From a virus (taxonomy: Duplodnaviria; Heunggongvirae; Uroviricota; Caudoviricetes): 8,598 nucleotides of DNA. Under the pieces are notes generated by a model, which was not told the origin of the DNA, searched no databases, and worked only from the letters and a program-made list of their open reading frames with translations. Below, piece by piece: positions 54-8,598 of the stretch (position 1 is its first letter; the number at the start of each line of letters is the position of its first letter). The position numbers and the translations under genes are program-made. The DNA lies in the IMG/VR virus record IMGVR_UViG_2671180828_000009, one strand, 5' to 3'.

Positions 54-1493
54 TTAATATCCAAATGCAATAAATACAGCGCCTGAAACTTTTGAATCAC
101 TGCTGGTTCCTGATGTCAAACAAGTTACAGCAGTAAACCCATCATTATATATACTTTCGCACGACGTAACGACTTGTGCATATGTCATTTTTGTGACAAA
201 CACACCCCATACTCCGTTAGGGAATGGCGTTGGATATGTAATAGGAAGCTGTTGTGGAATACCAATAGTTGTACTATTAGGAAGATTTCTTCGAAATATT
301 TGTATAATTAAACCATTCGGACCTTTAACCAACAAATTATCGCTTCCTTTTCCTGTTAGCTGAAAATAGCTCATGTCAGGGATTTCATAACTATTAGCAT
401 TACCAACATTTCTACCTGCCGCATTTCCCAAATGCCCTAAACCAAGATAAGTAAGAATTCCTTCTATATCCTTTCCACTCAAATTAGTCAGCGTATTATC
501 CAGCGGTTGTTTGCCTGCCAGCGCATTAAGCATTGTCGTGGCAAAGTTCGGGTCATTCCCCAGCGCCGCCGCCAGTTCGTTCAGTGTATCCAGTGCCGCA
601 GGTGCAGACCCCACCATTGCTGCAATTGCCGATTTCACAAAAGCTGTAGTGGCAATCTGTGTATTGTTGACCGACTGCGCCGCCGTGGGGGCTGTTGGCG
701 TTCCGGTGAGTGCCGGACTCGACAACGGTGCTTTTAGTGCCAGCACATTGTTAATGGTGGTACTGAAATTCGGATCATTGTTAATGGCTGCGGCTATTTC
801 TTTCAGCGTGTCCAGCGTGGCTGGCGCACCATTAATAAGGGCCGTCAGTGCCGCCTGAACAAACGCAGTGGTCGCAACCTGCGTGGTATTATTCCCCGCC
901 GCTGGCGTTGGCGCTTTGGGGGTTCCGGTAAACGTCGGACTTTCTTTGGGTGCATACTGTGAATGTGGGTCCTGTGCGGCAAGGTGTTTTGCCATCAGGT
1001 CATCCACATACACCTTCAGCTCCAGTACCTTGTCATCCACATACTTGCGGGTTGCCAGCACTACAGCAGGATCGATTTTCAGGGTGATATTTTCCGTGCT
1101 GCTGGTAATCAGCACCATGCGCACGGTCTGGGTGCGCCCGCTGCCTTCAGCCAGTTGCGGCTTATAGCTTTCCGGGCAGTTGCCCACGGCAATCAATGCC
1201 CCGGACTCATCAAACAGGCCCACTTCACGTATCCACCAACCTCCCTCGTTTTCAGGGATCACCTGTTCGGCAATAATCTGGCTGCTGTTCTGCGGGTCGA
1301 TATAGAGCATATTCAGCGCAGCCCGGCGTTTCTCATTTACCAGTGCCGTCTGCTTTGCGTCCGGCGTTGGCAATGTTCCGCCGCCATCGCCGACCGCCAT
1401 ATGGGTAATTTTTAAAGGCACACCGAGCGCGGCGGCGCTGGCAAGTTTCGCCGCGCCAATATCCGTCAGCAGGGTATAAAATTTTGTGCTCAT
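54..1493 (-). CDS. H: Tail fiber protein (P2 gpH-like), 479 aa, with a divergent C-terminal receptor-binding region
   Basis: N-terminus MSTKFYTLLTDIGAAKLASAAALGVPLKITHMAVGDGGG... resembles the recalled P2 gpH N-terminal domain. Internal motif ...NNTQIATTAFV...ALDTLNELAAALGNDPNFATTM.NALAGKQP is the conserved tail-fibre repeat seen in P2 H and lambda Stf. Position immediately after I in the late operon. Confidence 0.9.
   Translation of the reverse strand: MSTKFYTLLTDIGAAKLASAAALGVPLKITHMAVGDGGGTLPTPDAKQTALVNEKRRAALNMLYIDPQNSSQIIAEQVIPENEGGWWIREVGLFDESGALIAVGNCPESYKPQLAEGSGRTQTVRMVLITSSTENITLKIDPAVVLATRKYVDDKVLELKVYVDDLMAKHLAAQDPHSQYAPKESPTFTGTPKAPTPAAGNNTTQVATTAFVQAALTALINGAPATLDTLKEIAAAINNDPNFSTTINNVLALKAPLSSPALTGTPTAPTAAQSVNNTQIATTAFVKSAIAAMVGSAPAALDTLNELAAALGNDPNFATTMLNALAGKQPLDNTLTNLSGKDIEGILTYLGLGHLGNAAGRNVGNANSYEIPDMSYFQLTGKGSDNLLVKGPNGLIIQIFRRNLPNSTTIGIPQQLPITYPTPFPNGVWGVFVTKMTYAQVVTSCESIYNDGFTAVTCLTSGTSSDSKVSGAVFIAFGY
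501..941 (-). repeat. Two tandem copies of a ~73-codon tail-fibre repeat inside H (about nt 723..941 and 501..719)
   Basis: Residues 185-257 (SPTFTGTPKAPTPAAGNNTTQVATTAFVQAALTALINGAPATLDTLKEIAAAINNDPNFSTTINNVLALKAPL) and 259-331 (SPALTGTPTAPTAAQSVNNTQIATTAFVKSAIAAMVGSAPAALDTLNELAAALGNDPNFATTMLNALAGKQPL) align along their length with roughly 60% identity. Also visible as paired antisense ORF segments. Confidence 0.7.
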
Positions 1494-2095
1494 GGATTCA
1501 CTCTCATTGTGTCAATAACATGGACCGCCCCGCCTTCATGCGCGGTGCCGCCGGAAATAATTGTTTCGTTGATATACGGATAGATCGTGATTTCTTCACC
1601 AAGATAGCTGGCGGCTCCCACCCAATGCGGGCCGCTGGTCTGCAGATTGATGGACATGCCGATCATGTGACGGCTACATGGTTTGGCATCGCTTATCAGC
1701 CGCTCAAGCTCCAGATAGGTATCTTCAGTGATGCCCTGGTCCTGCACACCAATGTCCAGGCGAAACGTACCCGGTGTTTCTCCGGTCTGCCACCACTCAA
1801 TAATGCGGATCAGGAAGCCGAACGGCTCCACCACCCGCCGCACGGCACTGGTGGTTCCTTTATGCTGATGAATATAAAAAGCATCCTTCACCACCTGTCG
1901 TTTGACGCTTTCCGTCCAGCCCTCGTCCCAGCAATCCACAGAGAACGCCCAGGCGAGATAAGGCAGGAAACTGATCGGACAGGTCGTTGGATTCCACAAG
2001 TCACGCAGCGGCACCTGCAGATCAGAAATCCCGCTGCAGGTTTGCGCCAGTCGGCGCTCCAGTGGCGTTGAACCCGGTGGCAGCAGACTATTCAT
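1490..2095 (-). CDS. I: Baseplate assembly protein I (P2 gpI-like), 201 aa
   Basis: Motifs LPPGSTPLE, LWNPTTCP, LPYLAWAFSVDCWDEGW, GTFRLDIGV are characteristic of P2 gpI-family proteins. 4-nt ATGA overlap with the H start. Position between J and H. Confidence 0.85.
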   Translation of the reverse strand: MNSLLPPGSTPLERRLAQTCSGISDLQVPLRDLWNPTTCPISFLPYLAWAFSVDCWDEGWTESVKRQVVKDAFYIHQHKGTTSAVRRVVEPFGFLIRIIEWWQTGETPGTFRLDIGVQDQGITEDTYLELERLISDAKPCSRHMIGMSINLQTSGPHWVGAASYLGEEITIYPYINETIISGGTAHEGGAVHVIDTMRVNP

Positions 2096-2996
2096 CCGTT
2101 CCTCCGTTGGTTACGCTCCACTGCGTACATGATGCCGCCTGTGTTTTGTTCAGGACCACATCCGCCAGAGGAGAAGCCAGCTCCACACGCTGCACACCCT
2201 CAACATGCAGGGCGGCAAAGATGGCGCTACGGCGAATATCCCGACCAAGACGCGTCTGACTGGCGATGTACTTCTGCAGGCTGGCTTTTGCCGCTGCCAT
2301 TACCGGCTCTGCTTCCGGTCCCGGATAGAGAAAAATGGTGGCTTCCACGCGATACGGGATGATTTCTGCGCTGCGAACCGTCAGACGGTCAGCCACCGGG
2401 CGGACGTTCTCACTGTTCAGAGCTTTTTCCACCACGTCCAGCAGGTCTTTTTCTGCAGTTCCATCGCCTTCGCGGCTAAGGACAGTCAGCACCACCTCTG
2501 CAGGTGCCGGGCTGGTTGCACTGGCATCCGCCACCCGACCGTCGGCGCTTCGGGCATGAAATTCATAAGCTGCAGTTGGCCCCGCAACTGAAAGCCCTTC
2601 AAAGGCTGCAGGCACACGCAGGCGTAACGATTCATCGCTTTCCATCACAGCTGCAACGGGCGGCACAGCGTCATTATCAGCAGGCGTCACCGTCAGGCGT
2701 TTCACGTTGTAGTTGGCAGCGATTTGGTCCAGATCGCCGCCCATCGCATAAGCCACCATCACCGCCTGCGCGGCTTCGTTAATGCGCTGGCGCAGAAGCA
2801 ACTCACGGTAAGCGTTCTCCTGCAACAATTTGGTGACGGGTTCAGATTCCAGTTCCAGCGTGCGGATCACTGCTTCCTGCTCATCTTTCGGATGAAGCGC
2901 CACAAATTCGGCCTTGCGTTCGGCAAGCAGCGTCTCAAAGTCCGGCACATCCACAATCTGCGGCGCAGGCAACTGCGAAAGGTCAATCACTGCCAT
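2088..2996 (-). CDS. J: Baseplate assembly protein J (P2 gpJ-like), about 302 aa
   Basis: The ORF track opens at 3035, but the likely start is the ATG at 2996 (MAVIDLSQLPAPQIV...), giving the expected gpJ length. Position between W and I. Overlaps the W 3' end by 14 nt and the I start by 8 nt. Confidence 0.85.
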   Translation of the reverse strand: MAVIDLSQLPAPQIVDVPDFETLLAERKAEFVALHPKDEQEAVIRTLELESEPVTKLLQENAYRELLLRQRINEAAQAVMVAYAMGGDLDQIAANYNVKRLTVTPADNDAVPPVAAVMESDESLRLRVPAAFEGLSVAGPTAAYEFHARSADGRVADASATSPAPAEVVLTVLSREGDGTAEKDLLDVVEKALNSENVRPVADRLTVRSAEIIPYRVEATIFLYPGPEAEPVMAAAKASLQKYIASQTRLGRDIRRSAIFAALHVEGVQRVELASPLADVVLNKTQAASCTQWSVTNGGTDE

Positions 2997-3342
2997 TCTC
3001 TGCTCCTGTTGATACGGAAAGGGAAACAGGCACACCGCTATTACGCCGCCCGGTCAGCTCCACCACCATTGAACCGTCAAAATTACTGTTGATGGTGATG
3101 GAATCCAGCGTCAGCCGTGGCTCCCAGCGACTCAGCGCCACATACACTGCCGACATGACCTGCAGGCGTAACGCCGGATTTTGTGGCTGGTCTATCAGTG
3201 CCGACAGCAGGGAACCATATTCCCGGCGAGCAATGCGGCTACCCTGCGGCGTCAGCAAAATGTCCCGCACCGACTGGCGCAGATGGTCAATATCAGTAAT
3301 GGCTTTACCGCTGATATTGTTCATCCCGCTATAAAGCGTCAT
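2983..3342 (-). CDS. W: Baseplate wedge protein W (gp25-like), 119 aa
   Basis: Size and sequence (MTLYSGMN..., ...REYGSLL..IDQPQNPALRLQ...WEPR...) are consistent with P2 gpW. Start ATG overlaps the upstream stop as ATGA. Confidence 0.85.
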   Translation of the reverse strand: MTLYSGMNNISGKAITDIDHLRQSVRDILLTPQGSRIARREYGSLLSALIDQPQNPALRLQVMSAVYVALSRWEPRLTLDSITINSNFDGSMVVELTGRRNSGVPVSLSVSTGAENGSD

Positions 3343-3938
3343 ACCGGGCCTCCGGTTGTATCGCCGCCTTTCAGGACGCCAGTATGCTGATGCGCATCAA
3401 CCACGATCCCGTTAGAACTCATAGCTCCGCCGCCCTGGGTAAGGCACCAGGCCATCTCCCGCGCACGGCGGTTATCCAGCCCCTGATTAAAAACACCTTT
3501 CACATAAACCCAGCGCGGCAACTGTCGGCACGCATCCGCCCAGCGCCGCTGATTGAGCAATTTCACCAGCGTGGAGCTGCAGGCATTGCCTGTCCCCACG
3601 TTGAAGGCAAATGACACCACCGCGTCATACACTTTCTGCGGCGGCTGTTGCTTCACACACCTTTCCAGCGCCCGCTCCACACGCAGCACGTTGGAGATCA
3701 GCCCTTCCGCTGCCTGTCGTTCCGTAATGGTTTTGCCTGGAATGACACCAGATGTATTACCAATGCCGTCTGTCCAGACACCCGCGCTGCACTGATACGG
3801 CTGCAGACGACAGCCTTCGTAATCGGCAATCAGTTTCAGCCCCTCCACGGAGGTGTGAAGCTGCTGAAAACCCGGCAGCGTGGCAGCAATAGCCAGCACG
3901 GCTCCGACAAGGCAGCGTTTAACGATTGATGGATTCAT
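3339..3938 (-). CDS. SAR endolysin, T4-lysozyme (GH24) family, P1 Lyz-like, with a ~30 aa C-terminal extension
   Basis: Weakly hydrophobic Gly/Ala-rich N-terminus MNPSIVKRCLVGAVLAIAATLPG followed by ...YEGCRLQPYQCSAGVWTDGIGNT..., which closely matches the recalled P1 Lyz catalytic region (EGCRRDPYMCPAGVWTDGIGNT). Start chosen at the in-frame ATG 3938 because GGGAGGA sits immediately upstream; the ORF track opens at 3965. Confidence 0.8.
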   Translation of the reverse strand: MNPSIVKRCLVGAVLAIAATLPGFQQLHTSVEGLKLIADYEGCRLQPYQCSAGVWTDGIGNTSGVIPGKTITERQAAEGLISNVLRVERALERCVKQQPPQKVYDAVVSFAFNVGTGNACSSTLVKLLNQRRWADACRQLPRWVYVKGVFNQGLDNRRAREMAWCLTQGGGAMSSNGIVVDAHQHTGVLKGGDTTGGPV

Positions 3939-4134
3939 AGTCCTCCCGCGAGATCTGCCCGTCACGCAGAAGCTGGTAGGCTTTGTGTTTGTAGTACCAG
4001 TTGATAGCCAGCATCAGCACACCAATCATCAGGCCGCCCAGCGTTGAGGCATCCTTGATGGACAAATCGCCCAGCCAGGCCAGCACGACGGCGATGCAAT
4101 ACGTGATAAAGGCGCTGATTCGCTCAAGCGTCAT
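3919..4134 (-). CDS. Class II holin (possible pinholin), 71 aa
   Basis: Two predicted transmembrane helices (ISAFITYCIAVVLAWLG and LGGLMIGVLMLAINWYY) followed by a charged C-terminal tail. Sits immediately upstream of, and overlapping, the SAR endolysin gene. Confidence 0.6.
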   Translation of the reverse strand: MTLERISAFITYCIAVVLAWLGDLSIKDASTLGGLMIGVLMLAINWYYKHKAYQLLRDGQISREDYESINR

Positions 4135-4137
4135 AAT

Positions 4138-4341
4138 TCAGTCCCATAGCTGGACGGTCTGCACGGTGGTGGTTGTCGGTATGTCCGGCAGCTCCACCTG
4201 CAACCCGTGAGGTAAAAAGGGGCCGTATTCGGCAAGCCCCGGATTTGCCTTCAGTACCTGCTCCGTGACACCCTGCGTGCGCCCGTAATGACGCCAGCAA
4301 AGCGCGTCCACCGTGTCATACTGATGCGCACGCACTTTCAT
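4138..4341 (-). CDS. X: Tail protein X (P2 gpX-like), 67 aa
   Basis: MKVRAHQYDTVDALCWRHYGRTQGVTEQVLKANPGLAEYGPFLPHGLQVELPD closely resembles recalled P2 gpX. Exact expected size and position after L. Confidence 0.85.
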   Translation of the reverse strand: MKVRAHQYDTVDALCWRHYGRTQGVTEQVLKANPGLAEYGPFLPHGLQVELPDIPTTTTVQTVQLWD

Positions 4342-4805
4342 CAGATAAGCTCCACTGTGCAGTGCGGCGCATCCTGTACCCGGCTGATGGCCCAGCGGGC
4401 GTCACGCCACAAATCACCGCTGGCTTCTGCCAGTTCCTCGCCTCGCTTCACACCCGATGCCGTGGCGTCATAGTCCTGGTATCGTTCGTTGAGCATGGCG
4501 CGTGCCCAACAATAAACCGCGTTGAAATAGTGCTGAATGCGCTCACTTTTGCCGTCCAGCTGTTCCGCCGGGACTTCTGCCAGCGACACATACCCCAGCA
4601 TCTGCTGACGTCTGCGAAACTCATACAGCTCTGCGTTGACCTCCGAAATTGCCGACAGAGCAACCTGCTTTAAACGCGGCTGCGTCACCGTGCCGTCAGT
4701 GCGCATGACACTGCGAAACTCCGACAGGTCCACATCAGGCCAGAACGGCGTATTTCTGATGATTTCCGCCTGTTCCGGTGCCTGTTCTGGCGCAACAAAC
4801 TTCAT
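4341..4805 (-). CDS. L: Head completion/stabilisation protein L (P2 gpL-like), about 154 aa
   Basis: Start assigned to ATG 4805 (MKFVAPEQ...) preceded by AGGAGA; the ORF track opens further upstream at 4868 inside a GC-rich hairpin. Position immediately before X. Confidence 0.8.
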   Translation of the reverse strand: MKFVAPEQAPEQAEIIRNTPFWPDVDLSEFRSVMRTDGTVTQPRLKQVALSAISEVNAELYEFRRRQQMLGYVSLAEVPAEQLDGKSERIQHYFNAVYCWARAMLNERYQDYDATASGVKRGEELAEASGDLWRDARWAISRVQDAPHCTVELI

Positions 4806-4818
4806 GCTGCTTTCTCCT

Positions 4819-4880
4819 GAAATAAAGGGCGGTGGACGGGGTTTTGATGTGGCAGTGCCTTTCGCCACCCCGTGCCGCCC
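4819..4880 (-). terminator. Candidate intrinsic terminator or structured element between the N remnant and L
   Basis: GC-rich imperfect stem (gggcgg..acgggg at 4828-4842 pairing with ccccgt.ccgccc at 4868-4880, ~25-nt loop) followed on the transcribed strand by CTTTATTTC just upstream of the L ribosome-binding site. Confidence 0.3.
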
Positions 4881-4900
4881 GTGCGCGGGGGCACGTTCTG

Positions 4901-5614
4901 TCAGCGGCTGTCATTGCGCAGTCTGCGCTCCAGCTGCTGTTTGTCTTTTTTCACGCCACAGCGGGGATCGAGCTGTAACGCATGGTTGAGATGATTAAGG
5001 GCAGACGCCGGATTCCCGACTTTCACTGCGCCCGGTGTGGTTTCACCGCCCGTGGTGGTGCTGCCCATGACGTGATCCGGTGCATCCTCACGGATTTTCT
5101 GCAGCCAGCCTTTGTTCACATCCTGCAGCAGCGGGTTTTCGCTACGGTTGGAGGTTTTCGCACGCTTCACGCCGTTAAAGCCGATCATGATGCGGTCCAG
5201 TGCCTGACGTTTCACGATGGCGTTACGGATACGCACCTGGAAATCCTGAAACTTCGCCCACAGGTCCAGCTTCGCGTAGGTCAGCACCGTGTCAAAGTTG
5301 GTCTGCTCGCATTTGTATTCCACATCGACCATCAGCGTCGGATCGACAGGCTCACGCTCTTTCGCGGTGGTGTCAGTGGTTCCGGCAATGGTGCTGCCAA
5401 CACCCAGCCCCAGCAACTGACCAGACTGCTCAGTCACTGGCGTGACGTTAATCAGCGTCAGGAATGCGGCGGACTGCTGGATCTGGTCTTCCAGCGTCTG
5501 CTGTACAGACGGCTCCACGGTGAACTTGCTGGACAGTTCTTCAACTGCCACACCGTTCAGACGCGCCAGCTGCTGCAGGTAAGCGTTAAAAGCAAAGCGG
5601 GTATTCTTCTTCAT
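4901..5614 (-). pseudogene. N: Major capsid protein N, 3'-truncated (237 codons versus about 350 expected)
   Basis: N-terminal ~205 aa (MKKNTRFAFNAYL...KFTVEPSV...LDLWAKFQDFQVRIRNAIVKRQALDRIMIGFNGVKRA...) look like a P2 N-family capsid protein. It follows O as expected, but the ORF is about 120 codons short, has a basic non-capsid-like tail (KKDKQQLERRLRNDSR), and no M gene lies between it and L. Confidence 0.7.
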
Positions 5615-5630
5615 CAGGTTTTGTGCTCCA

Positions 5631-6464
5631 TCAGCAATTGGTCAGAGTGTCAGCGGGGGCGTTACCGCCTGTTGCACGCTGGCGGTAGTCCTGGCGGCTG
5701 TCTTCATGGCTCAGCTTGTCCACCAGTTCGTTAAAGGCGGTCAGCTGTGCCTGCAGGGCTGTCTCCAGCTCAGACAGGCGTTCTTCCTGTTCAGACAGGG
5801 ATTTTTCGGTGCGCGCACTCAGGTTTTGCTGCTCAGTGGCGACCAGCTCCACGGCCTTATGCACATCAGAGAACCGGGCATCGTCGGACTGCTCTTTTTT
5901 GGTAAACAGCGCCGTGACACGGGCAAACAGGGACGGCTTGTCCTCCTGGATTTCTTCCAGTTCGATCACTGTTTCCTCTGCGGCGGTAAAGAGATTGGCG
6001 GGATTCTGCTTGCGGTTTGCCAGTGGGTTATGGGCTGCACTGGCGCTGAATGTCAGCATTTCAGTGCCCAGACTGGCAGGGTCATCAGTGGCAGCCAGGC
6101 CGACCAGGTAGGCTTTGCCCGTATCAGCGAACTTCGGGCTGACTTCCATAGAGGTGAATAATTTCTGGCCTTTTTTCACCAGTTCCACCAGGGACTCCGT
6201 TGGCTCAACGTCGGCATACAGCGCCATCTTGCCTGCCAGCGGACCTTCCGTGATTTCTTCAGCAAACAGCGCCGTCACCTTGCCGTAGCGGTTAAAGGTG
6301 CTGTCCGGCAGATAAGACTTGATGTGCTCAAGGTTAATCAGCGCGGTATACACCGCCGGGTTGTAGCTGGCTGCCATCTGTTCCAGCCATTCTCGCTGGA
6401 TTTCGCGTCCGTCGGTGGTGGCACCTTCCACCCCGATGCGAAAACGCTTTGCTTTCACTGTCAT
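5631..6464 (-). CDS. O: Capsid scaffolding protein O (P2 gpO-like), 277 aa
   Basis: ...FRIGVEG..DGR...INLEH...YG.V..L.AE...; ...AYLVGLAATDDPASLGTE... and C-terminal ...ATGG....D.LTNC match recalled gpO. GGAG 8 nt upstream of the ATG. Divergent from P. Confidence 0.85.
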   Translation of the reverse strand: MTVKAKRFRIGVEGATTDGREIQREWLEQMAASYNPAVYTALINLEHIKSYLPDSTFNRYGKVTALFAEEITEGPLAGKMALYADVEPTESLVELVKKGQKLFTSMEVSPKFADTGKAYLVGLAATDDPASLGTEMLTFSASAAHNPLANRKQNPANLFTAAEETVIELEEIQEDKPSLFARVTALFTKKEQSDDARFSDVHKAVELVATEQQNLSARTEKSLSEQEERLSELETALQAQLTAFNELVDKLSHEDSRQDYRQRATGGNAPADTLTNC

Positions 6465-6606: not shown

Positions 6607-7578
6607 ATGAACACCACACTGACACCCGCAGATCTCGATCCCCGTCGGCAGGCCATGCTGCTGTACTTTCAGGGATACCGCGTAGCCCGCATTGCTGAAA
6701 TGCTGGGCGAGAAAGTTGCAACCGTTCACAGCTGGAAAAAACGCGACAAGTGGGGTGACTATGGGCCGCTGGATCAGATGCAGCTCACCACCGCCGCACG
6801 CTACTGCCAGCTCATCATGAAGGAGCACAAAGAAGGGAAAGATTTCAAAGAGATTGACCTGCTGGCGCGCCAGTCTGAGCGCCACGCGCGGATCGGCAAG
6901 TTTAACAATGGCGGCAACGAATCCGACTTAAACCCTAACGTCGCCAACCGCAACAAAGGCCCACGCCGTCAGCCGGAAAAGAATGTTTTCACCGATGAGC
7001 AGATTGAGAAGCTGGAAGAAATCTTCCATTCCTCCATGTTCAACTACCAGCGCCACTGGTGGGAAGCCGGAAAAACCAACCGCATCCGCAACCTGCTGAA
7101 GTCACGCCAGATCGGCGCGACCTTTTACTTTGCCCGTGAAGCCCTGATTGACGCCCTGCTGACCGGACGTAACCAGATTTTCCTTTCCGCCAGCAAGGCA
7201 CAGGCCCACGTCTTTAAGCAGTACATCATCGACTTCGCCAAAGAAGTGGAGGTGGAGTTGAAAGGCGATCCGATGGTGCTTCCTAACGGGGCCACGCTTT
7301 ACTTCCTCGGCACCAATGCCCGCACTGCCCAGAGTTATCACGGCAACCTGTATCTGGATGAATATTTCTGGATACCGAAATTCCAGGAGCTGCGCAAAGT
7401 GGCTTCCGGTATGGCTATTCACAAGAAATGGCGACAAACCTATTTTTCCACGCCATCCAGCCTGACACACAGTGCTTATCCGTTCTGGTCCGGTGCGCTA
7501 TTCAACCGTGGGCGCAACAAAGCCGATACCGCACCTGCAGCAACACGCCCGATCTCTGCGGTTGCACTCATGACGTAA
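6607..7578 (+). pseudogene. P: Terminase large subunit P, truncated (323 codons versus about 590 expected)
   Basis: N-terminal region (...[17 protein letters not shown]...[10 protein letters not shown]..., ...[17 protein letters not shown]...) is consistent with the P2 gpP N-terminal and ATPase region. The frame ends in a non-terminase-like tail overlapping the convergent cII-like gene. No portal gene Q follows. Confidence 0.75.
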
Positions 7579-7868
7579 TGTGGCAGTTTCTCTTTTGCCA
7601 CCTCATTAATTGGTACGCATGGCAGGCAGTGAATCTGTGCCAGAAAACCATCTACCAACGTTGAATCTTCAGTCAGATCGGTAAGCAGCCAGATTTCTGG
7701 TGCGGTTAATAAATGAGGTTGAGCTGGGTTCAGCTTGTTCCGCAGAATCTGCACATTCATGCCCGCACGTTCTGCCAGTTGCACCAGATTGTGGCGCAGT
7801 GCGAATGCACGACAGGCTTCATCAAAATGTGGATGTTTGGAAACTTGGTAATCAAACATGGTTTTCAA
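7476..7868 (-). CDS. cII: Phage CII-like regulatory protein (186 CII / CP76 family), probably 3'-truncated
   Basis: [45 protein letters not shown]...[25 protein letters not shown] matches the recalled CP76/CII family N-terminal region. The real start may be M4 at 7859. 130 aa versus about 165-170 for family members. Confidence 0.65.
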
Positions 7869-7873
7869 CTCCG

Positions 7874-7915
7874 AACTTATCGCAAAATCGAACTCAGCGT
7901 CTTATTGCGAAAATA
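7874..7915. promoter_or_regulatory. Paired repeats in the apl-cII intergenic region
   Basis: CTTATCGCAAAAT (7875-7887) and CTTATTGCGAAAAT (7901-7914) form a direct repeat about 26 bp apart; they contain the inverted hexamers TCGCAA / TTGCGA. Confidence 0.25.
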
Positions 7916-7923
7916 GACGTCTA

Positions 7924-8127
7924 TTAAGCAGACAAAGCATCAACAGTCAGAGCAGCCAGGTTAATCATTACCTTTTCACGTTTTTTGTCTTTACGAAGAC
8001 GATGACGAGGTAGTCGGCCATCAGCCAACATGTCGTTAATCGTATCAATAGAAAGGCCAGTCAGTTCGCTATAACGTTCGATTGTGACATGTGGTGTATT
8101 CAGAGTAATTGAAATGTTAGGTGTCAT
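7924..8127 (-). CDS. Small helix-turn-helix DNA-binding protein, Apl/Cox-like excisionase-regulator, 67 aa
   Basis: ...[27 protein letters not shown]... is an excisionase-type HTH. First gene of the leftward operon, divergent from cI and upstream of cII, as apl is in 186. Confidence 0.5.
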
Positions 8128-8272
8128 AAGGCAACATTCCTTCTAGATATGGCTTGTGGCGAGCCGTTGTTTGTCGTGATTAGTAGTGAAGGCTCCAAAA
8201 GAACACTTCTGGTTCAACTTTAAGATCGCTTTTGGAATCTGTCAACGAATTTTGGATTTCTTTGGAGGACTT
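8128..8272. promoter_or_regulatory. Immunity switch region between the divergent apl-like and cI genes
   Basis: 145-bp intergenic region. Perfect 8-bp inverted repeat TCCAAAAG (8194-8201) / CTTTTGGA (8229-8236) with further TTTGGA copies at 8251 and 8261. GGAGG at 8264-8268 ahead of the cI GTG. No promoter hexamers could be placed confidently. Confidence 0.4.
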
Positions 8273-8598
8273 GTGGATTTCAATAGCGGCGGTAAGAAAG
8301 CCATAGAACGTTTAGTTGAAGCATATGGGTTCGGTACCCGTCAGGCTCTCTGTGATCATTTAGGTGTTTCTAAGAGCACCATGGCAACGCGCTATATGCG
8401 TGATATTTTTCCAGCAGATTGGGTAATCCAGTGCGCCCTTGAAACGGGCACCTCGCTTAATTGGCTAACAACAGGGCATGGTTCAAAGCAAGCATCAGCA
8501 AATACAAATACTATAGAAGTAGAAAAATATTTATTGTCTGATGGAGCATTGCAGAAAGACGGTTTTTATATTTTTGATAAGGGATTTCTACCCTCTAC
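8273..8598 (+). CDS. cI: CI-family repressor (186 CI-like N-terminal HTH domain), 5' part only
   Basis: Open frame from GTG 8273 to the window edge: VDFNSGGKKAIERLVEAYGFGTRQALCDHLGVSKSTMATRYMRDIFPADWVIQCALETGTSLNWLTTGHG..., matching the 186 CI-type HTH pattern. Not in the ORF track because it has a non-ATG start and no stop within the window. Confidence 0.7.
   Translation, partial: MDFNSGGKKAIERLVEAYGFGTRQALCDHLGVSKSTMATRYMRDIFPADWVIQCALETGTSLNWLTTGHGSKQASANTNTIEVEKYLLSDGALQKDGFYIFDKGFLPS

What the first reader, a model, noticed from the sequence alone, without database searches (positions are those of the whole stretch)
8128..8272. Candidate repressor operators in the cI/apl switch region
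A perfect 8-bp inverted repeat (TCCAAAAG / CTTTTGGA, centres about 35 bp apart) plus two more TTTGGA copies lie just upstream of cI. These may be operator half-sites for the CI or Apl-like protein.
Basis: seen in the sequence. Interest (0 to 1): 0.4.

Follow-up and report, generated by a model that had tools for sequence, protein, structure and literature searches.

The report
Repressor operators in 186-like prophage switch
The repeated TTTGGA/TCCAAA motifs are real and most likely mark the DNA sites where this defective E. coli prophage's CI repressor sits on its lytic promoter, which is an ordinary feature of a well-known kind of phage switch, though this immunity type has not been characterised.

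Summary
TCCAAAAG (8194-8201) and CTTTTGGA (8229-8236) form a perfect inverted repeat, with further TTTGGA copies at 8251-56 and 8261-66. They lie between an apl/cox-like gene (7924-8127, -) and a 186-family cI gene (GTG 8273, +).

The right arm fills the spacer of a strong leftward promoter (TTGACA-17-TAAAGT, 8245-8217), the pR equivalent. The left arm lies at about +5 to +20.

By chance alone the repeat is weak (14% of shuffles), so the case rests on comparison:
- In 40 distinct related switches the two arms are intact in 39 and 40 cases, inside a 96-bp non-coding block that is 86-100% identical. About half the synonymous codons of the adjoining cI have changed in the diverged relatives.
- In heteroimmune relatives both arms change together (8 of 16 positions).
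- Phages with nearly the same Apl but another CI type have no TTTGGA.

I read the arms as the cores of two separate ~16-bp CI operators, O1 and O2, three helical turns apart. They are not half-sites of one operator and not Apl sites.

The copy at 8251-56 is a weak, poorly conserved candidate O3. The copy at 8261-66 overlaps the ribosome-binding site.

Candidate Apl sites are a separate 10-bp-periodic array at 8153-8188.

This is a new member of a known kind. No binding was tested.

The parts
8224..8239 (.). O2, candidate CI operator: GATCGCTTTTGGAATC. It fills 16 of the 17 bp of the pR spacer.
   Evidence: CTTTTGGA is invariant in 40 of 40 distinct related sequences. The promoter hexamers flank it. 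It changes together with O1 in other immunity types.
8191..8206 (.). O1, candidate CI operator: GGCTCCAAAAGAACAC, an inverted copy of O2 (10/16 identical to its reverse complement). Its centre is 33 bp (three turns) from the centre of O2, at about +5 to +20 of pR.
   Evidence: TCCAAAAG is intact in 39 of 40 sequences. The right part, 8202-8205, is variable (3, 1, 9 and 3 of 40 sequences differ). In types L279, L284 and L011 the O1 and O2 units are 12/14 inverted copies of each other 36-38 bp apart.
8244..8259 (.). O3, a weak candidate operator: AACGAATTTTGGATTT. It is a direct copy of the O2 core, 20 bp (two turns) upstream, just beyond the -35.
   Evidence: ATTTTGGA at 8249-56. TTTGGA is kept in only 17 of 40 relatives, and G8254 differs in 20 of 40. 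A comparable direct copy 20 bp from O2 can be read by eye in the L284 sequence printed.
8260..8266 (+). Fourth copy, CTTTGGA, overlapping the cI Shine-Dalgarno GGAGG (8264-68). Its conservation is explained at least partly by the ribosome-binding site.
   Evidence: TTTGGA kept in 31 of 40; GGAG is the conserved part.
8270..8277 (+). Fifth, imperfect copy, CTTGTGGA, containing the cI start codon GTG (8273-75). It lies 21 bp from the copy at 8249.
   Evidence: Ten of 40 relatives use a TTG start, which makes this a perfect CTTTTGGA. In 186 the annotated CI-binding stretch also begins at the cI start codon.
8217..8245 (-). pR-equivalent lytic promoter driving apl and cII: -35 TTGACA (8245-8240), 17-bp spacer, -10 TAAAGT (8222-8217). 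The start site is inferred near 8210.
   Evidence: 10 of 12 matches. The -10 is unchanged in 37 of 40 and the -35 in 35 of 40 relatives. The position is the same as pR in the annotated 186 record.
8109..8137 (+). pL-equivalent lysogenic promoter for cI, inferred: -35 TTGAAA (8109-14), 17-bp spacer, -10 CAACAT (8132-37). It faces pR. The start sites would be about 65 bp apart.
   Evidence: By eye the sequence lines up with the annotated 186 pL, TTGCGA-17-CATGAT (the two were not aligned with a tool). GCAACATTCC is conserved in relatives. It falls below the threshold of the promoter scan.
8153..8188 (+). Candidate Apl operator array: four direct repeats at an exact 10-bp period (CTTGTG, GCCGTT, GTCGTG, GTAGTG; core GTK) between pL and pR.
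   Evidence: The periodicity score is reached by 17 of 2000 shuffles. The same test on the known 186 Apl array gives 2 of 2000. In 186, Apl binds direct repeats 10-11 bp apart between pR and pL (PMC7498355).
7924..8127 (-). apl/cox-like gene (67 aa), first gene of the lytic operon.
   Evidence: PHROG 575, E 1e-29.
8273..8598 (+). cI repressor gene, 186 family, cut by the end of the window. It is 189 aa in intact prophages.

Best explanation
The repeated motif marks the operators through which this prophage's own 186-family CI repressor shuts off the lytic promoter pR.

Two ~16-bp units carry the motif in opposite orientation:
- O2 (8224-8239) occupies the spacer between the -35 and -10 of pR.
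- O1 (8191-8206) lies at about +5 to +20.
Their centres are 33 bp apart, about three helical turns. A weaker direct copy, O3 (about 8244-8259), lies two turns upstream of O2. Another imperfect copy covers the cI start codon.

By analogy with 186, neighbouring dimers of a CI multimer would bind these sites cooperatively. The C-terminal domain is homologous to the domain that forms the 14-mer wheel in 186. Binding would cover pR from about -50 to +20 and exclude RNA polymerase. Silencing pR would remove convergent interference on the facing cI promoter pL.

What is shown: the anatomy, strong purifying selection, specificity to one immunity type, and concerted change of O1 and O2 between types.

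What is inferred: that CI is the binding protein, the multimer geometry, the effect on pL, and both transcription start sites.
For: 1. Position. pR is TTGACA-17-TAAAGT at 8245-8217. In the annotated 186 record the three CI sites run from the cI start codon across pR, and Apl sites fill the pR-pL gap.

2. The repressor belongs to the 186 CI family: PF07022 + PF16452, 2FJR at E 1.5e-31 and the wheel domain 2FKD at E 1.1e-14.

3. Selection. In the 24 relatives first compared, the non-coding block 8150-8245 is 83-96 of 96 identical. In the diverged ones, 25-33 of 52-60 same-amino-acid codons in the adjoining cI N-terminal domain differ. In the enlarged set of 40 distinct sequences (75 loci; Escherichia, Citrobacter, Enterobacter, Scandinavium, Silvania, Kosakonia, viral contigs and metagenomes), TCCAAAAG is kept in 39 of 40 and CTTTTGGA in 40 of 40.

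4. Concerted change. In heteroimmune relatives the units at the same two positions are 12/14 inverted copies of each other but differ in sequence from the window's. L279 has TTCCCAAA/TTTGGGAA, which is A8197C together with T8233G. L284 has GATTGCAAAAGC and L011 has ACCCAATTTCG. Counted formally, 8 of 16 positions change on both arms, a value reached by 0 of 500 shuffles and by at most 5 positions in any slid register.

5. In L274 the same motif pair sits closer together. I calculate 22 bp between unit centres by hand (one search gives 20 bp between the best 14-mers), against 33 bp in L279. That is two turns rather than three, as expected for binding on one face of the helix.

6. The motif follows the cI type, not Apl. 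813R9 (Apl 64/67 identical) and the L043 type (61/67) have no TTTGGA and carry their own repeats. L012 has a more diverged Apl (58/67) yet keeps the motif.

7. Every other type differs from the window type at residue 29, 37 or 39 of the CI helix-turn-helix.

8. 186 CI is known to bind operators two turns apart at pR and 32 bp apart at pB (PMC3675496).
Against: - No binding data exist for this CI.
- In the window itself O1 and O2 share only 10 of 16 positions, and internal dyad symmetry is weak (4/6 for the O2 half-sites, 3/6 for O1). 186 CI is described as binding inverted repeats (PMC1904263).
- The right part of O1 (8202-8205) varies freely.
- The arms are not clearly more conserved than the rest of the 96-bp block, so conservation alone does not single them out.
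- No distal copies comparable to 186 FL and FR were found.
- The overall identity of the CI N-terminal domain does not track operator type. L012 and the L043 type are both 52/65 identical to the window, so specificity must rest on a few residues.
- I chose the alignment registers for L011 and L274 by best match, which favours the covariation count. Only about four independent lineages contribute to it.
Confidence: 0.68

Rival explanations
1. The repeats are Apl/Cox operators. The excisionase-repressor would bind the TTTGGA copies to damp pR and pL, as 186 Apl does at its direct repeats.
For: The direct copies start at 8229, 8249, 8260 and 8270, so they are phased at whole helical turns (20, 11 and 10 bp). 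RDF-type proteins bind phased direct repeats with low specificity (PMC7498355). The apl-like gene is adjacent.
Against: Phages with Apl 61-64/67 identical to this one have no TTTGGA in their switches. Within the window type, Apl diverges to 58/67 without any change in the motif. The copies lie over and upstream of pR, not between pR and pL. No copy occurs in the int-proximal att arm, by my reading of the sequence. A separate 10-bp-periodic array at 8153-8188 fits the Apl pattern better.
Confidence: 0.07
2. The two arms pair in RNA. In the cI leader made from pL or pE, 8191-8206 would base-pair with 8224-8239, and CTCCAAA (8193-99) could alternatively mask the Shine-Dalgarno TTTGGAG (8261-67). 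This would control cI translation or mRNA stability.
For: Compensatory changes keep the arms complementary. The single variant in the left arm (A8197G in L012) would still form a G-U pair. CTCCAAA is complementary to TTTGGAG, a perfect 7-nt match (pair I11).
Against: The predicted leader folds no better than shuffled sequence (z 0.12), and the minimum-energy fold does not pair the two arms. The pR leader shows the same (z 0.16). In sister types L285 and L287 the two units are direct repeats, 14/14 and 12/14, and cannot pair. Changes in the Shine-Dalgarno copy (TTAGGGA, ATTTAGA) are not compensated in the invariant left arm. There is no Rfam match.
Confidence: 0.08
3. There is no dedicated function. 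The repeat is a by-product of a T-rich, densely constrained promoter region, and the conservation comes from pR, pL and other overlapping signals.
For: 14% of shuffles contain an inverted repeat of at least 8 bp. The whole block 8150-8245 is conserved, not just the arms. The copy at 8261-66 is explained by the ribosome-binding site, and the TGGA of the copy at 8270-77 by the start codon plus an Asp codon.
Against: Promoter spacers and early transcribed regions are not normally invariant at every base. The two arms change together in at least three other lineages while keeping their positions, which by-product conservation does not predict.
Confidence: 0.1
4. The sites are bound by another factor, either a host nucleoid protein or another phage regulator such as CII.
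For: A-tract-containing sites often bind or bend with host factors. GATC inside O2 could make binding depend on methylation (the prophage carries a dam gene).
Against: The motif differs between heteroimmune phages of the same hosts, so a host factor is unlikely. In the annotated 186 record CII acts at pE near the apl-cII boundary, not at pR.
Confidence: 0.05

Closest known systems
[quoted passage not shown]
   Same: - Same repressor family.
- Same divergent cI/apl gene layout with face-to-face promoters.
- The sites lie between the cI start codon and the early transcribed region of pR.
- Spacing is in whole helical turns; 186 uses two turns at pR and 32 bp at pB (PMC3675496).
- The unit is ~16 bp with a TCC(C/A)AA core, like the central 186 palindrome TCTCCCAATTGAGAGA.
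   Different: - The sequence is different (TCCAAAAG).
- O1 and O2 are three turns apart, and O1 lies further downstream than in 186.
- Internal dyad symmetry is weak, and the units occur in opposite orientations.
- No distal sites like FL and FR were found.
- The cI-apl spacer is 145 bp, against 129 bp in 186.
- Nothing has been tested biochemically.
Apl operators of 186 (seven 6-bp direct repeats, 10-11 bp apart, between pR and pL; five more at attP)
   Same: A 10-bp-periodic array of four direct repeats lies between the two promoters at 8153-8188. The adjacent gene is a Cox/Apl-type protein.
   Different: This array is not the TTTGGA motif of the finding. It has four copies rather than seven. 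No matching array was recognised in the att arm. The Apl here is 67 aa and only 19/59 identical to 186 Apl.
C-repressor operators of P2, P2 Hy dis and WPhi (two direct-repeat half-sites, two or three helical turns apart, around the early promoter Pe)
   Same: The arrangement looks alike: 8-bp repeats two to three turns apart around the early promoter, with sequence and spacing differing between heteroimmune phages (PMC1904263 and PMC1904268).
   Different: The repressor family is different. P2 C is about 100 aa, whereas the repressor here is a two-domain 186-type CI. The two best-conserved copies here are inverted, not direct.

Membership tests
186-type CI operator set at pR | An adjacent repressor gene of the 186 CI family (helix-turn-helix N-terminal domain plus oligomerising C-terminal domain). 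| tested here: met
   PF07022 E 2.5e-31, PF16452 E 3.4e-29; 2FJR E 1.5e-31, 2FKD E 1.1e-14.
186-type CI operator set at pR | Sites overlap the lytic promoter between the cI start codon and the early transcribed region. | tested here: met
   O2 lies in the pR spacer, O1 at about +5 to +20, O3 and the fifth copy lie between the -35 and the cI start. The 186 layout is. The promoter is predicted, not mapped.
186-type CI operator set at pR | Three adjacent operators, each two helical turns apart. | tested here: inconclusive
   The 8-mer copies at 8229, 8249 and 8270 are 20 and 21 bp apart. However, the copies at 8249 and 8270 are poorly conserved or constrained by coding. The two well-conserved units are 33 bp apart.
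186-type CI operator set at pR | Each operator is an inverted repeat. | tested here: inconclusive
   The O2 half-sites GATCGC and GATTCC match 4/6, those of O1 match 3/6 and those of O3 match 2/6 (read). Related types show clearer palindromes, such as GATTGC-N4-GCAATC in L284 and GTACCCAATTGGGTAC in 813R9.
186-type CI operator set at pR | Distal auxiliary sites about 300 bp to either side (FL, FR). | tested here: not met
   There is no further copy of the 8-mer (one mismatch allowed) within 600 bp. The only palindrome at the FR position, 7912-7925, has a different sequence, is not conserved in relatives, and has no FL partner.
186-type CI operator set at pR | CI protein binds the sites and represses pR. 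| not testable with these tools
   This needs gel shift, footprinting or reporter assays. The indirect support is the concerted change of O1 and O2 with immunity type.
Apl/Cox (RDF) operator array | At least three adjacent direct repeats 10-11 bp apart, between pR and pL. | tested here: not met
   The TTTGGA copies lie over and upstream of pR, and the two best-conserved are inverted and 35 bp apart. A different array at 8153-8188 does meet this feature.
Apl/Cox (RDF) operator array | The motif follows the Apl protein and recurs at the attachment site. | tested here: not met
   There are no TTTGGA copies in the switches of phages with 61-64/67 identical Apl. None is visible in the int-proximal att arm of the intact prophage. 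The other att arm was not examined.
P2 C-type operators | Bound by a small (~100 aa) P2 C-family repressor. | tested here: not met
   The repressor here is a 189-aa 186-type CI.

The most novel reading that the evidence does not exclude
In this branch of 186-like phages, CI may read asymmetric ~16-bp operators without regard to their orientation. The units are inverted in the window, L279, L284 and L011 types but direct in the L285 and L287 types. The spacing can shift by whole helical turns (two in L274, three in L279). Part of immunity specificity may lie in the central A-tract, read through DNA shape. That tract is invariant TTTT in 40 window-type sequences and covaries in L279, yet the equivalent positions are hypervariable in the sister L043 type. 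If so, natural variation would give a direct handle on how a 14-mer repressor wheel selects and phases its DNA sites, which the 186 literature still describes as partly unresolved.
Probability: 0.2. Interest if true: 0.5.

Novelty: new member of a known kind. Interest (0 to 1): 0.3.

Why it matters
It assigns candidate operators, promoters and candidate Apl sites to a 186-like immunity type that is common in E. coli. Of 5426 complete genomes, 115 carry at least 80% of 7900-8598. No record in a collection of 50,697 phage genomes matches the operator part of the switch.

The set of heteroimmune relatives with co-varying operator pairs is a ready-made comparative resource. It can be used to study operator recognition and spacing rules of the CI wheel. 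It also points to residues 29, 37 and 39 as candidate determinants of specificity. For the source genome, it shows that a heavily deleted prophage keeps an apparently intact immunity module.

Tried and rejected
1. Scanning viral contigs for TCCAAAAG-N24-30-CTTTTGGA gave 120 hits (the cap). Twenty-seven were this switch type with exactly 27 nt between the arms. The other 93 were spread evenly over all spacings with no CI gene nearby, so they are chance matches. The scan shows only that the pair is specific to this switch.

2. I searched for FL/FR-like distal operators. No further motif copies turned up. The 14-bp palindrome at 7912-25 is not conserved and has no partner.

3. RNA explanations: the folds of the pL and pR leaders are no better than shuffles, and there is no Rfam family.

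4. I tried reading each arm as half of a local dyad. TCCAAAAG-aaca-CTTCTGGT matches 6/8, but positions 8210-8211 differ in 26 and 23 of 40 relatives, so I rejected it.

5. A DNA search of phage records with 8080-8330 matched only the apl end, so no characterised phage shares this operator region.

6. I could not obtain the original operator definitions for 186. PMC2941640 is not held, and two literature searches gave nothing more specific. I used the annotated record NC_001317 and secondary descriptions instead.

7. Overall identity of the CI N-terminal domain or of Apl did not predict operator type. Only specific residues did.

Full report
**What is in the window.** The window is part of a P2/186-like (Peduoviridae) prophage of E. 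coli. Tail fibre, baseplate, lysis and head genes fill 54-6464. A terminase fragment follows (6607-7578, +). Then come a CII-family gene (7476-7868, -), a 67-aa apl/cox-like gene (7924-8127, -) and, facing away from it, a cI gene that runs off the end of the window. In an intact copy of the same prophage (E. coli 1283, next to rcdA), RefSeq annotation starts cI at the GTG that corresponds to window 8273. The protein is 189 aa. It has both Pfam domains of the 186 CI family. It matches the 186 CI crystal structure 2FJR at E 1.5e-31 and the 14-mer 'wheel' domain 2FKD at E 1.1e-14.

**Check of the observation.** TCCAAAAG (8194-8201) and CTTTTGGA (8229-8236) are perfectly complementary, with centres 35 bp apart. 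TTTGGA also occurs at 8251-56 and 8261-66, and four of the six copies in the whole window fall within 73 bp. With one mismatch allowed, a further copy, CTTGTGGA at 8270-77, covers the cI start codon. The direct copies then begin at 8229, 8249 and 8270, spaced 20 and 21 bp. Taken alone this is not remarkable: 14% of dinucleotide shuffles of the region contain a perfect inverted repeat of at least 8 bp, and 4% have some hexamer four times.

**Promoters.**
- The only strong sigma-70-like site in 7800-8598 points leftward towards apl: TTGACA (8245-8240), 17 bp, TAAAGT (8222-8217). This is the position of pR in the fully annotated 186 record. There, three CI sites run from the cI start codon across pR, seven Apl sites fill the gap between pR and the facing promoter pL, and the -35 of pL lies inside apl.
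- By eye, the 186 pL (TTGCGA-17-CATGAT) lines up with window TTGAAA (8109-14)-17-CAACAT (8132-37). This places the two inferred start sites about 65 bp apart, facing each other.
- The right arm of the repeat therefore lies in the pR spacer, the left arm at about +10 to +17, and the other copies between the -35 and cI.

**Related sequences.** Searches with the CI N-terminal domain in genomes, viral contigs and metagenomes gave 75 loci with this switch type, 40 of them distinct. They come from Escherichia, Citrobacter, Enterobacter, Scandinavium, Silvania, Kosakonia and uncultured sources.
- In the 24 relatives first compared, the non-coding block 8150-8245 is 83-96 of 96 identical to the window. 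In the diverged ones, 25-33 of 52-60 same-amino-acid codons in the adjoining cI N-terminal domain carry synonymous changes. Almost every base of the block is therefore under purifying selection.
- TCCAAAAG is intact in 39 of 40 sequences and CTTTTGGA in 40 of 40.
- The stretch 8246-8272 is much freer. TTTGGA at 8251-56 survives in only 17 of 40.
- The copy at 8261-66 overlaps the Shine-Dalgarno GGAGG.
- The copy at the start codon varies with the start codon used (GTG, TTG or ATG). TTG makes it a perfect CTTTTGGA.

**CI or Apl?** Natural swaps answer this.
- Phage vB_EcoM-813R9 has an Apl 64/67 identical to the window's. A large group typified by L043 has one 61/67 identical. Their switches contain no TTTGGA and carry other repeats instead (GTACCCAA and GTGAAC).
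- Conversely, L012 has a more diverged Apl (58/67) but keeps the motif.

The motif therefore goes with the cI type, not with Apl. Every other operator type differs from the window type at residue 29, 37 or 39 of the CI helix-turn-helix. This is a correlation, not a test.

**Concerted change of the two arms.**
- Anchoring different immunity types on the -10 and -35 of pR shows that the segment just downstream of the -10 and the segment in the spacer are copies of one another in each type, but the sequence differs between types. In L279, L284 and L011 they are 12/14 inverted copies 36-38 bp apart.
- L279 differs from the window by exactly A8197C on one arm and T8233G on the other.
- Over a 16-bp unit, 8 of 16 positions change on both arms so that the arms stay matched. 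This is reached by 0 of 500 shuffles and by at most 5 positions in any slid register.
- In L274 the same motif pair sits closer together. I calculate 22 bp between unit centres by hand (one search gives 20 bp between the best 14-mers), against 33 bp in L279. That is a difference of one helical turn.
- In L285 and L287 the two units are direct repeats 30 bp apart.
- Caveats: I chose the registers for L011 and L274 by best match, and only about four independent lineages contribute.

**Interpretation.** The arms are best read as the cores of two separate ~16-bp operators. O1 is 8191-8206 (GGCTCCAAAAGAACAC) and O2 is 8224-8239 (GATCGCTTTTGGAATC). They lie in opposite orientation with centres 33 bp apart.
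- O2 fills 16 of the 17 bp of the pR spacer.
- Its outer parts form a modest dyad (GATCGC versus GATTCC). Related types show clearer 16-bp palindromes, such as GTACCCAATTGGGTAC in 813R9.
- The TCC(C/A)AA core resembles the central 186 pR palindrome TCTCCCAATTGAGAGA.
- 186 CI is reported to bind operators two turns apart at pR and 32 bp apart at pB (PMC3675496), so both spacings seen here have precedent.
- The copy at 8249-56 is a weak candidate O3, two turns upstream of O2.

The likely mechanism is inferred from 186. Cooperative binding of a CI multimer to O3, O2 and O1 would occlude pR. Silencing pR would relieve interference on pL.

**Rival explanations.**
- RNA pairing of the arms in the cI leader would also fit the compensatory changes. 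However, the leader folds no better than shuffled sequence and its best fold does not pair the arms. The direct-repeat arrangement in sister types cannot pair. No Rfam family matches.
- By-product conservation does not predict concerted change of the arms.
- A host factor does not fit a motif that differs between heteroimmune phages of the same hosts.

**Candidate Apl sites.** Between pL and pR there are four direct repeats at an exact 10-bp period (8153-8188: CTTGTG, GCCGTT, GTCGTG, GTAGTG). The periodicity score is reached by 17 of 2000 shuffles. The same test on the known 186 Apl array gives 2 of 2000. This fits the RDF pattern described for Apl (PMC7498355) but is only a lead.

**Verdict.** These are most likely CI operator elements, not Apl sites and not half-sites of a single operator. 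This is a new, uncharacterised member of a well-known kind of switch. No phage record in the collection searched shares the operator part, whereas 115 of 5426 complete E. coli genomes carry at least 80% of 7900-8598. All statements about binding are inferences.

Noticed in passing
window 7522-7528 (and 4868-5614): The prophage is a deletion remnant. A terminase-ATPase fragment (cut at Pfam profile position 166 of 215) is joined directly to a 3'-truncated cII. This removes fil, the replication genes, dam and the portal gene, all present in the intact copy. The capsid gene covers only profile positions 1-189 of 327 and abuts the head-completion gene, so the small terminase gene appears to be missing. 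Only 1 of 5426 complete E. coli genomes (LR-64-2, NZ_AP027595.1) has the terminase-cII junction. The immunity module is intact (the 699 bp from 7900 are 100% identical to several genomes, including E. coli 1283).
   Followed up: partly
window 7912-7925: A perfect 14-bp palindrome, AATAGACGTCTATT, overlaps the apl stop codon. In 186 the distal CI operator FR begins at the apl stop codon. The palindrome is unrelated to TTTGGA, is not conserved in relatives with the same CI N-terminal domain, and has no FL-like partner in cI. Most of the more diverged relatives instead have an inverted repeat, CTTATCGCA...TGCGATAAG, in the apl-cII spacer.
   Followed up: partly
L043-type loci (e.g. L043:860-864, positions -41 to -37 before the cI ATG): In the sister immunity type (77 loci), the five bases at the centre of the spacer operator GATCGC[ACAGT]GAAATC occur in 14 variants. 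Nearly all the other ~185 aligned positions are invariant or carry only rare variants. This is a mutational or diversifying hotspot next to a GATC. The equivalent TTTT in the window type (8230-33) is invariant in 40 distinct sequences.
   Followed up: partly
window 8151-8165 (hairpin call 8149-8167): GGCTTGTGGCGAGCC is almost invariant in the window type and is also present in the 813R9 and L279 types. The scan flags it as a terminator-like hairpin followed by a T-rich run on the + strand, at the 5' end of the inferred pL transcript. The two changes seen in L012 are not compensatory. It overlaps the first repeats of the candidate Apl array.
   Followed up: partly
window 8224-8227: A GATC (Dam site) sits inside O2, immediately upstream of the pR -10. 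GATC at this position is kept in most heteroimmune types (GATCGC, GATCAC, GATCCG, GATCTC). The intact prophage encodes a DNA adenine methylase. Methylation-sensitive repressor binding or promoter activity is possible.
   Followed up: no
window 8273-8275 and relatives: The cI start codon is GTG here, TTG in 13 of 40 and ATG in 6 of 40 related sequences. It lies inside a copy of the operator motif, and TTG usually gives a perfect CTTTTGGA (10 of 40). Overlap with a binding site may explain the frequent non-ATG starts.
   Followed up: partly
cI, window 8273-8598, compared with L005-L012: CI is modular in nature. L005 has the window's C-terminal domain (identical from about residue 117, and about 85% identical overall) joined to a different N-terminus and different operators. 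L006-L012 have the window's N-terminal domain and operators joined to C-terminal domains that bring whole-protein identity down to 42-62%. Recombination seems to occur between the DNA-binding and oligomerisation domains.
   Followed up: partly
L002 12415-12447 (int-proximal att arm of the intact prophage): Two direct repeats of AACTTATTGTTTT lie 20 bp apart, and ACCACC-type repeats lie just after int. These are probably recombination-protein binding sites. They are unrelated to TTTGGA.
   Followed up: no
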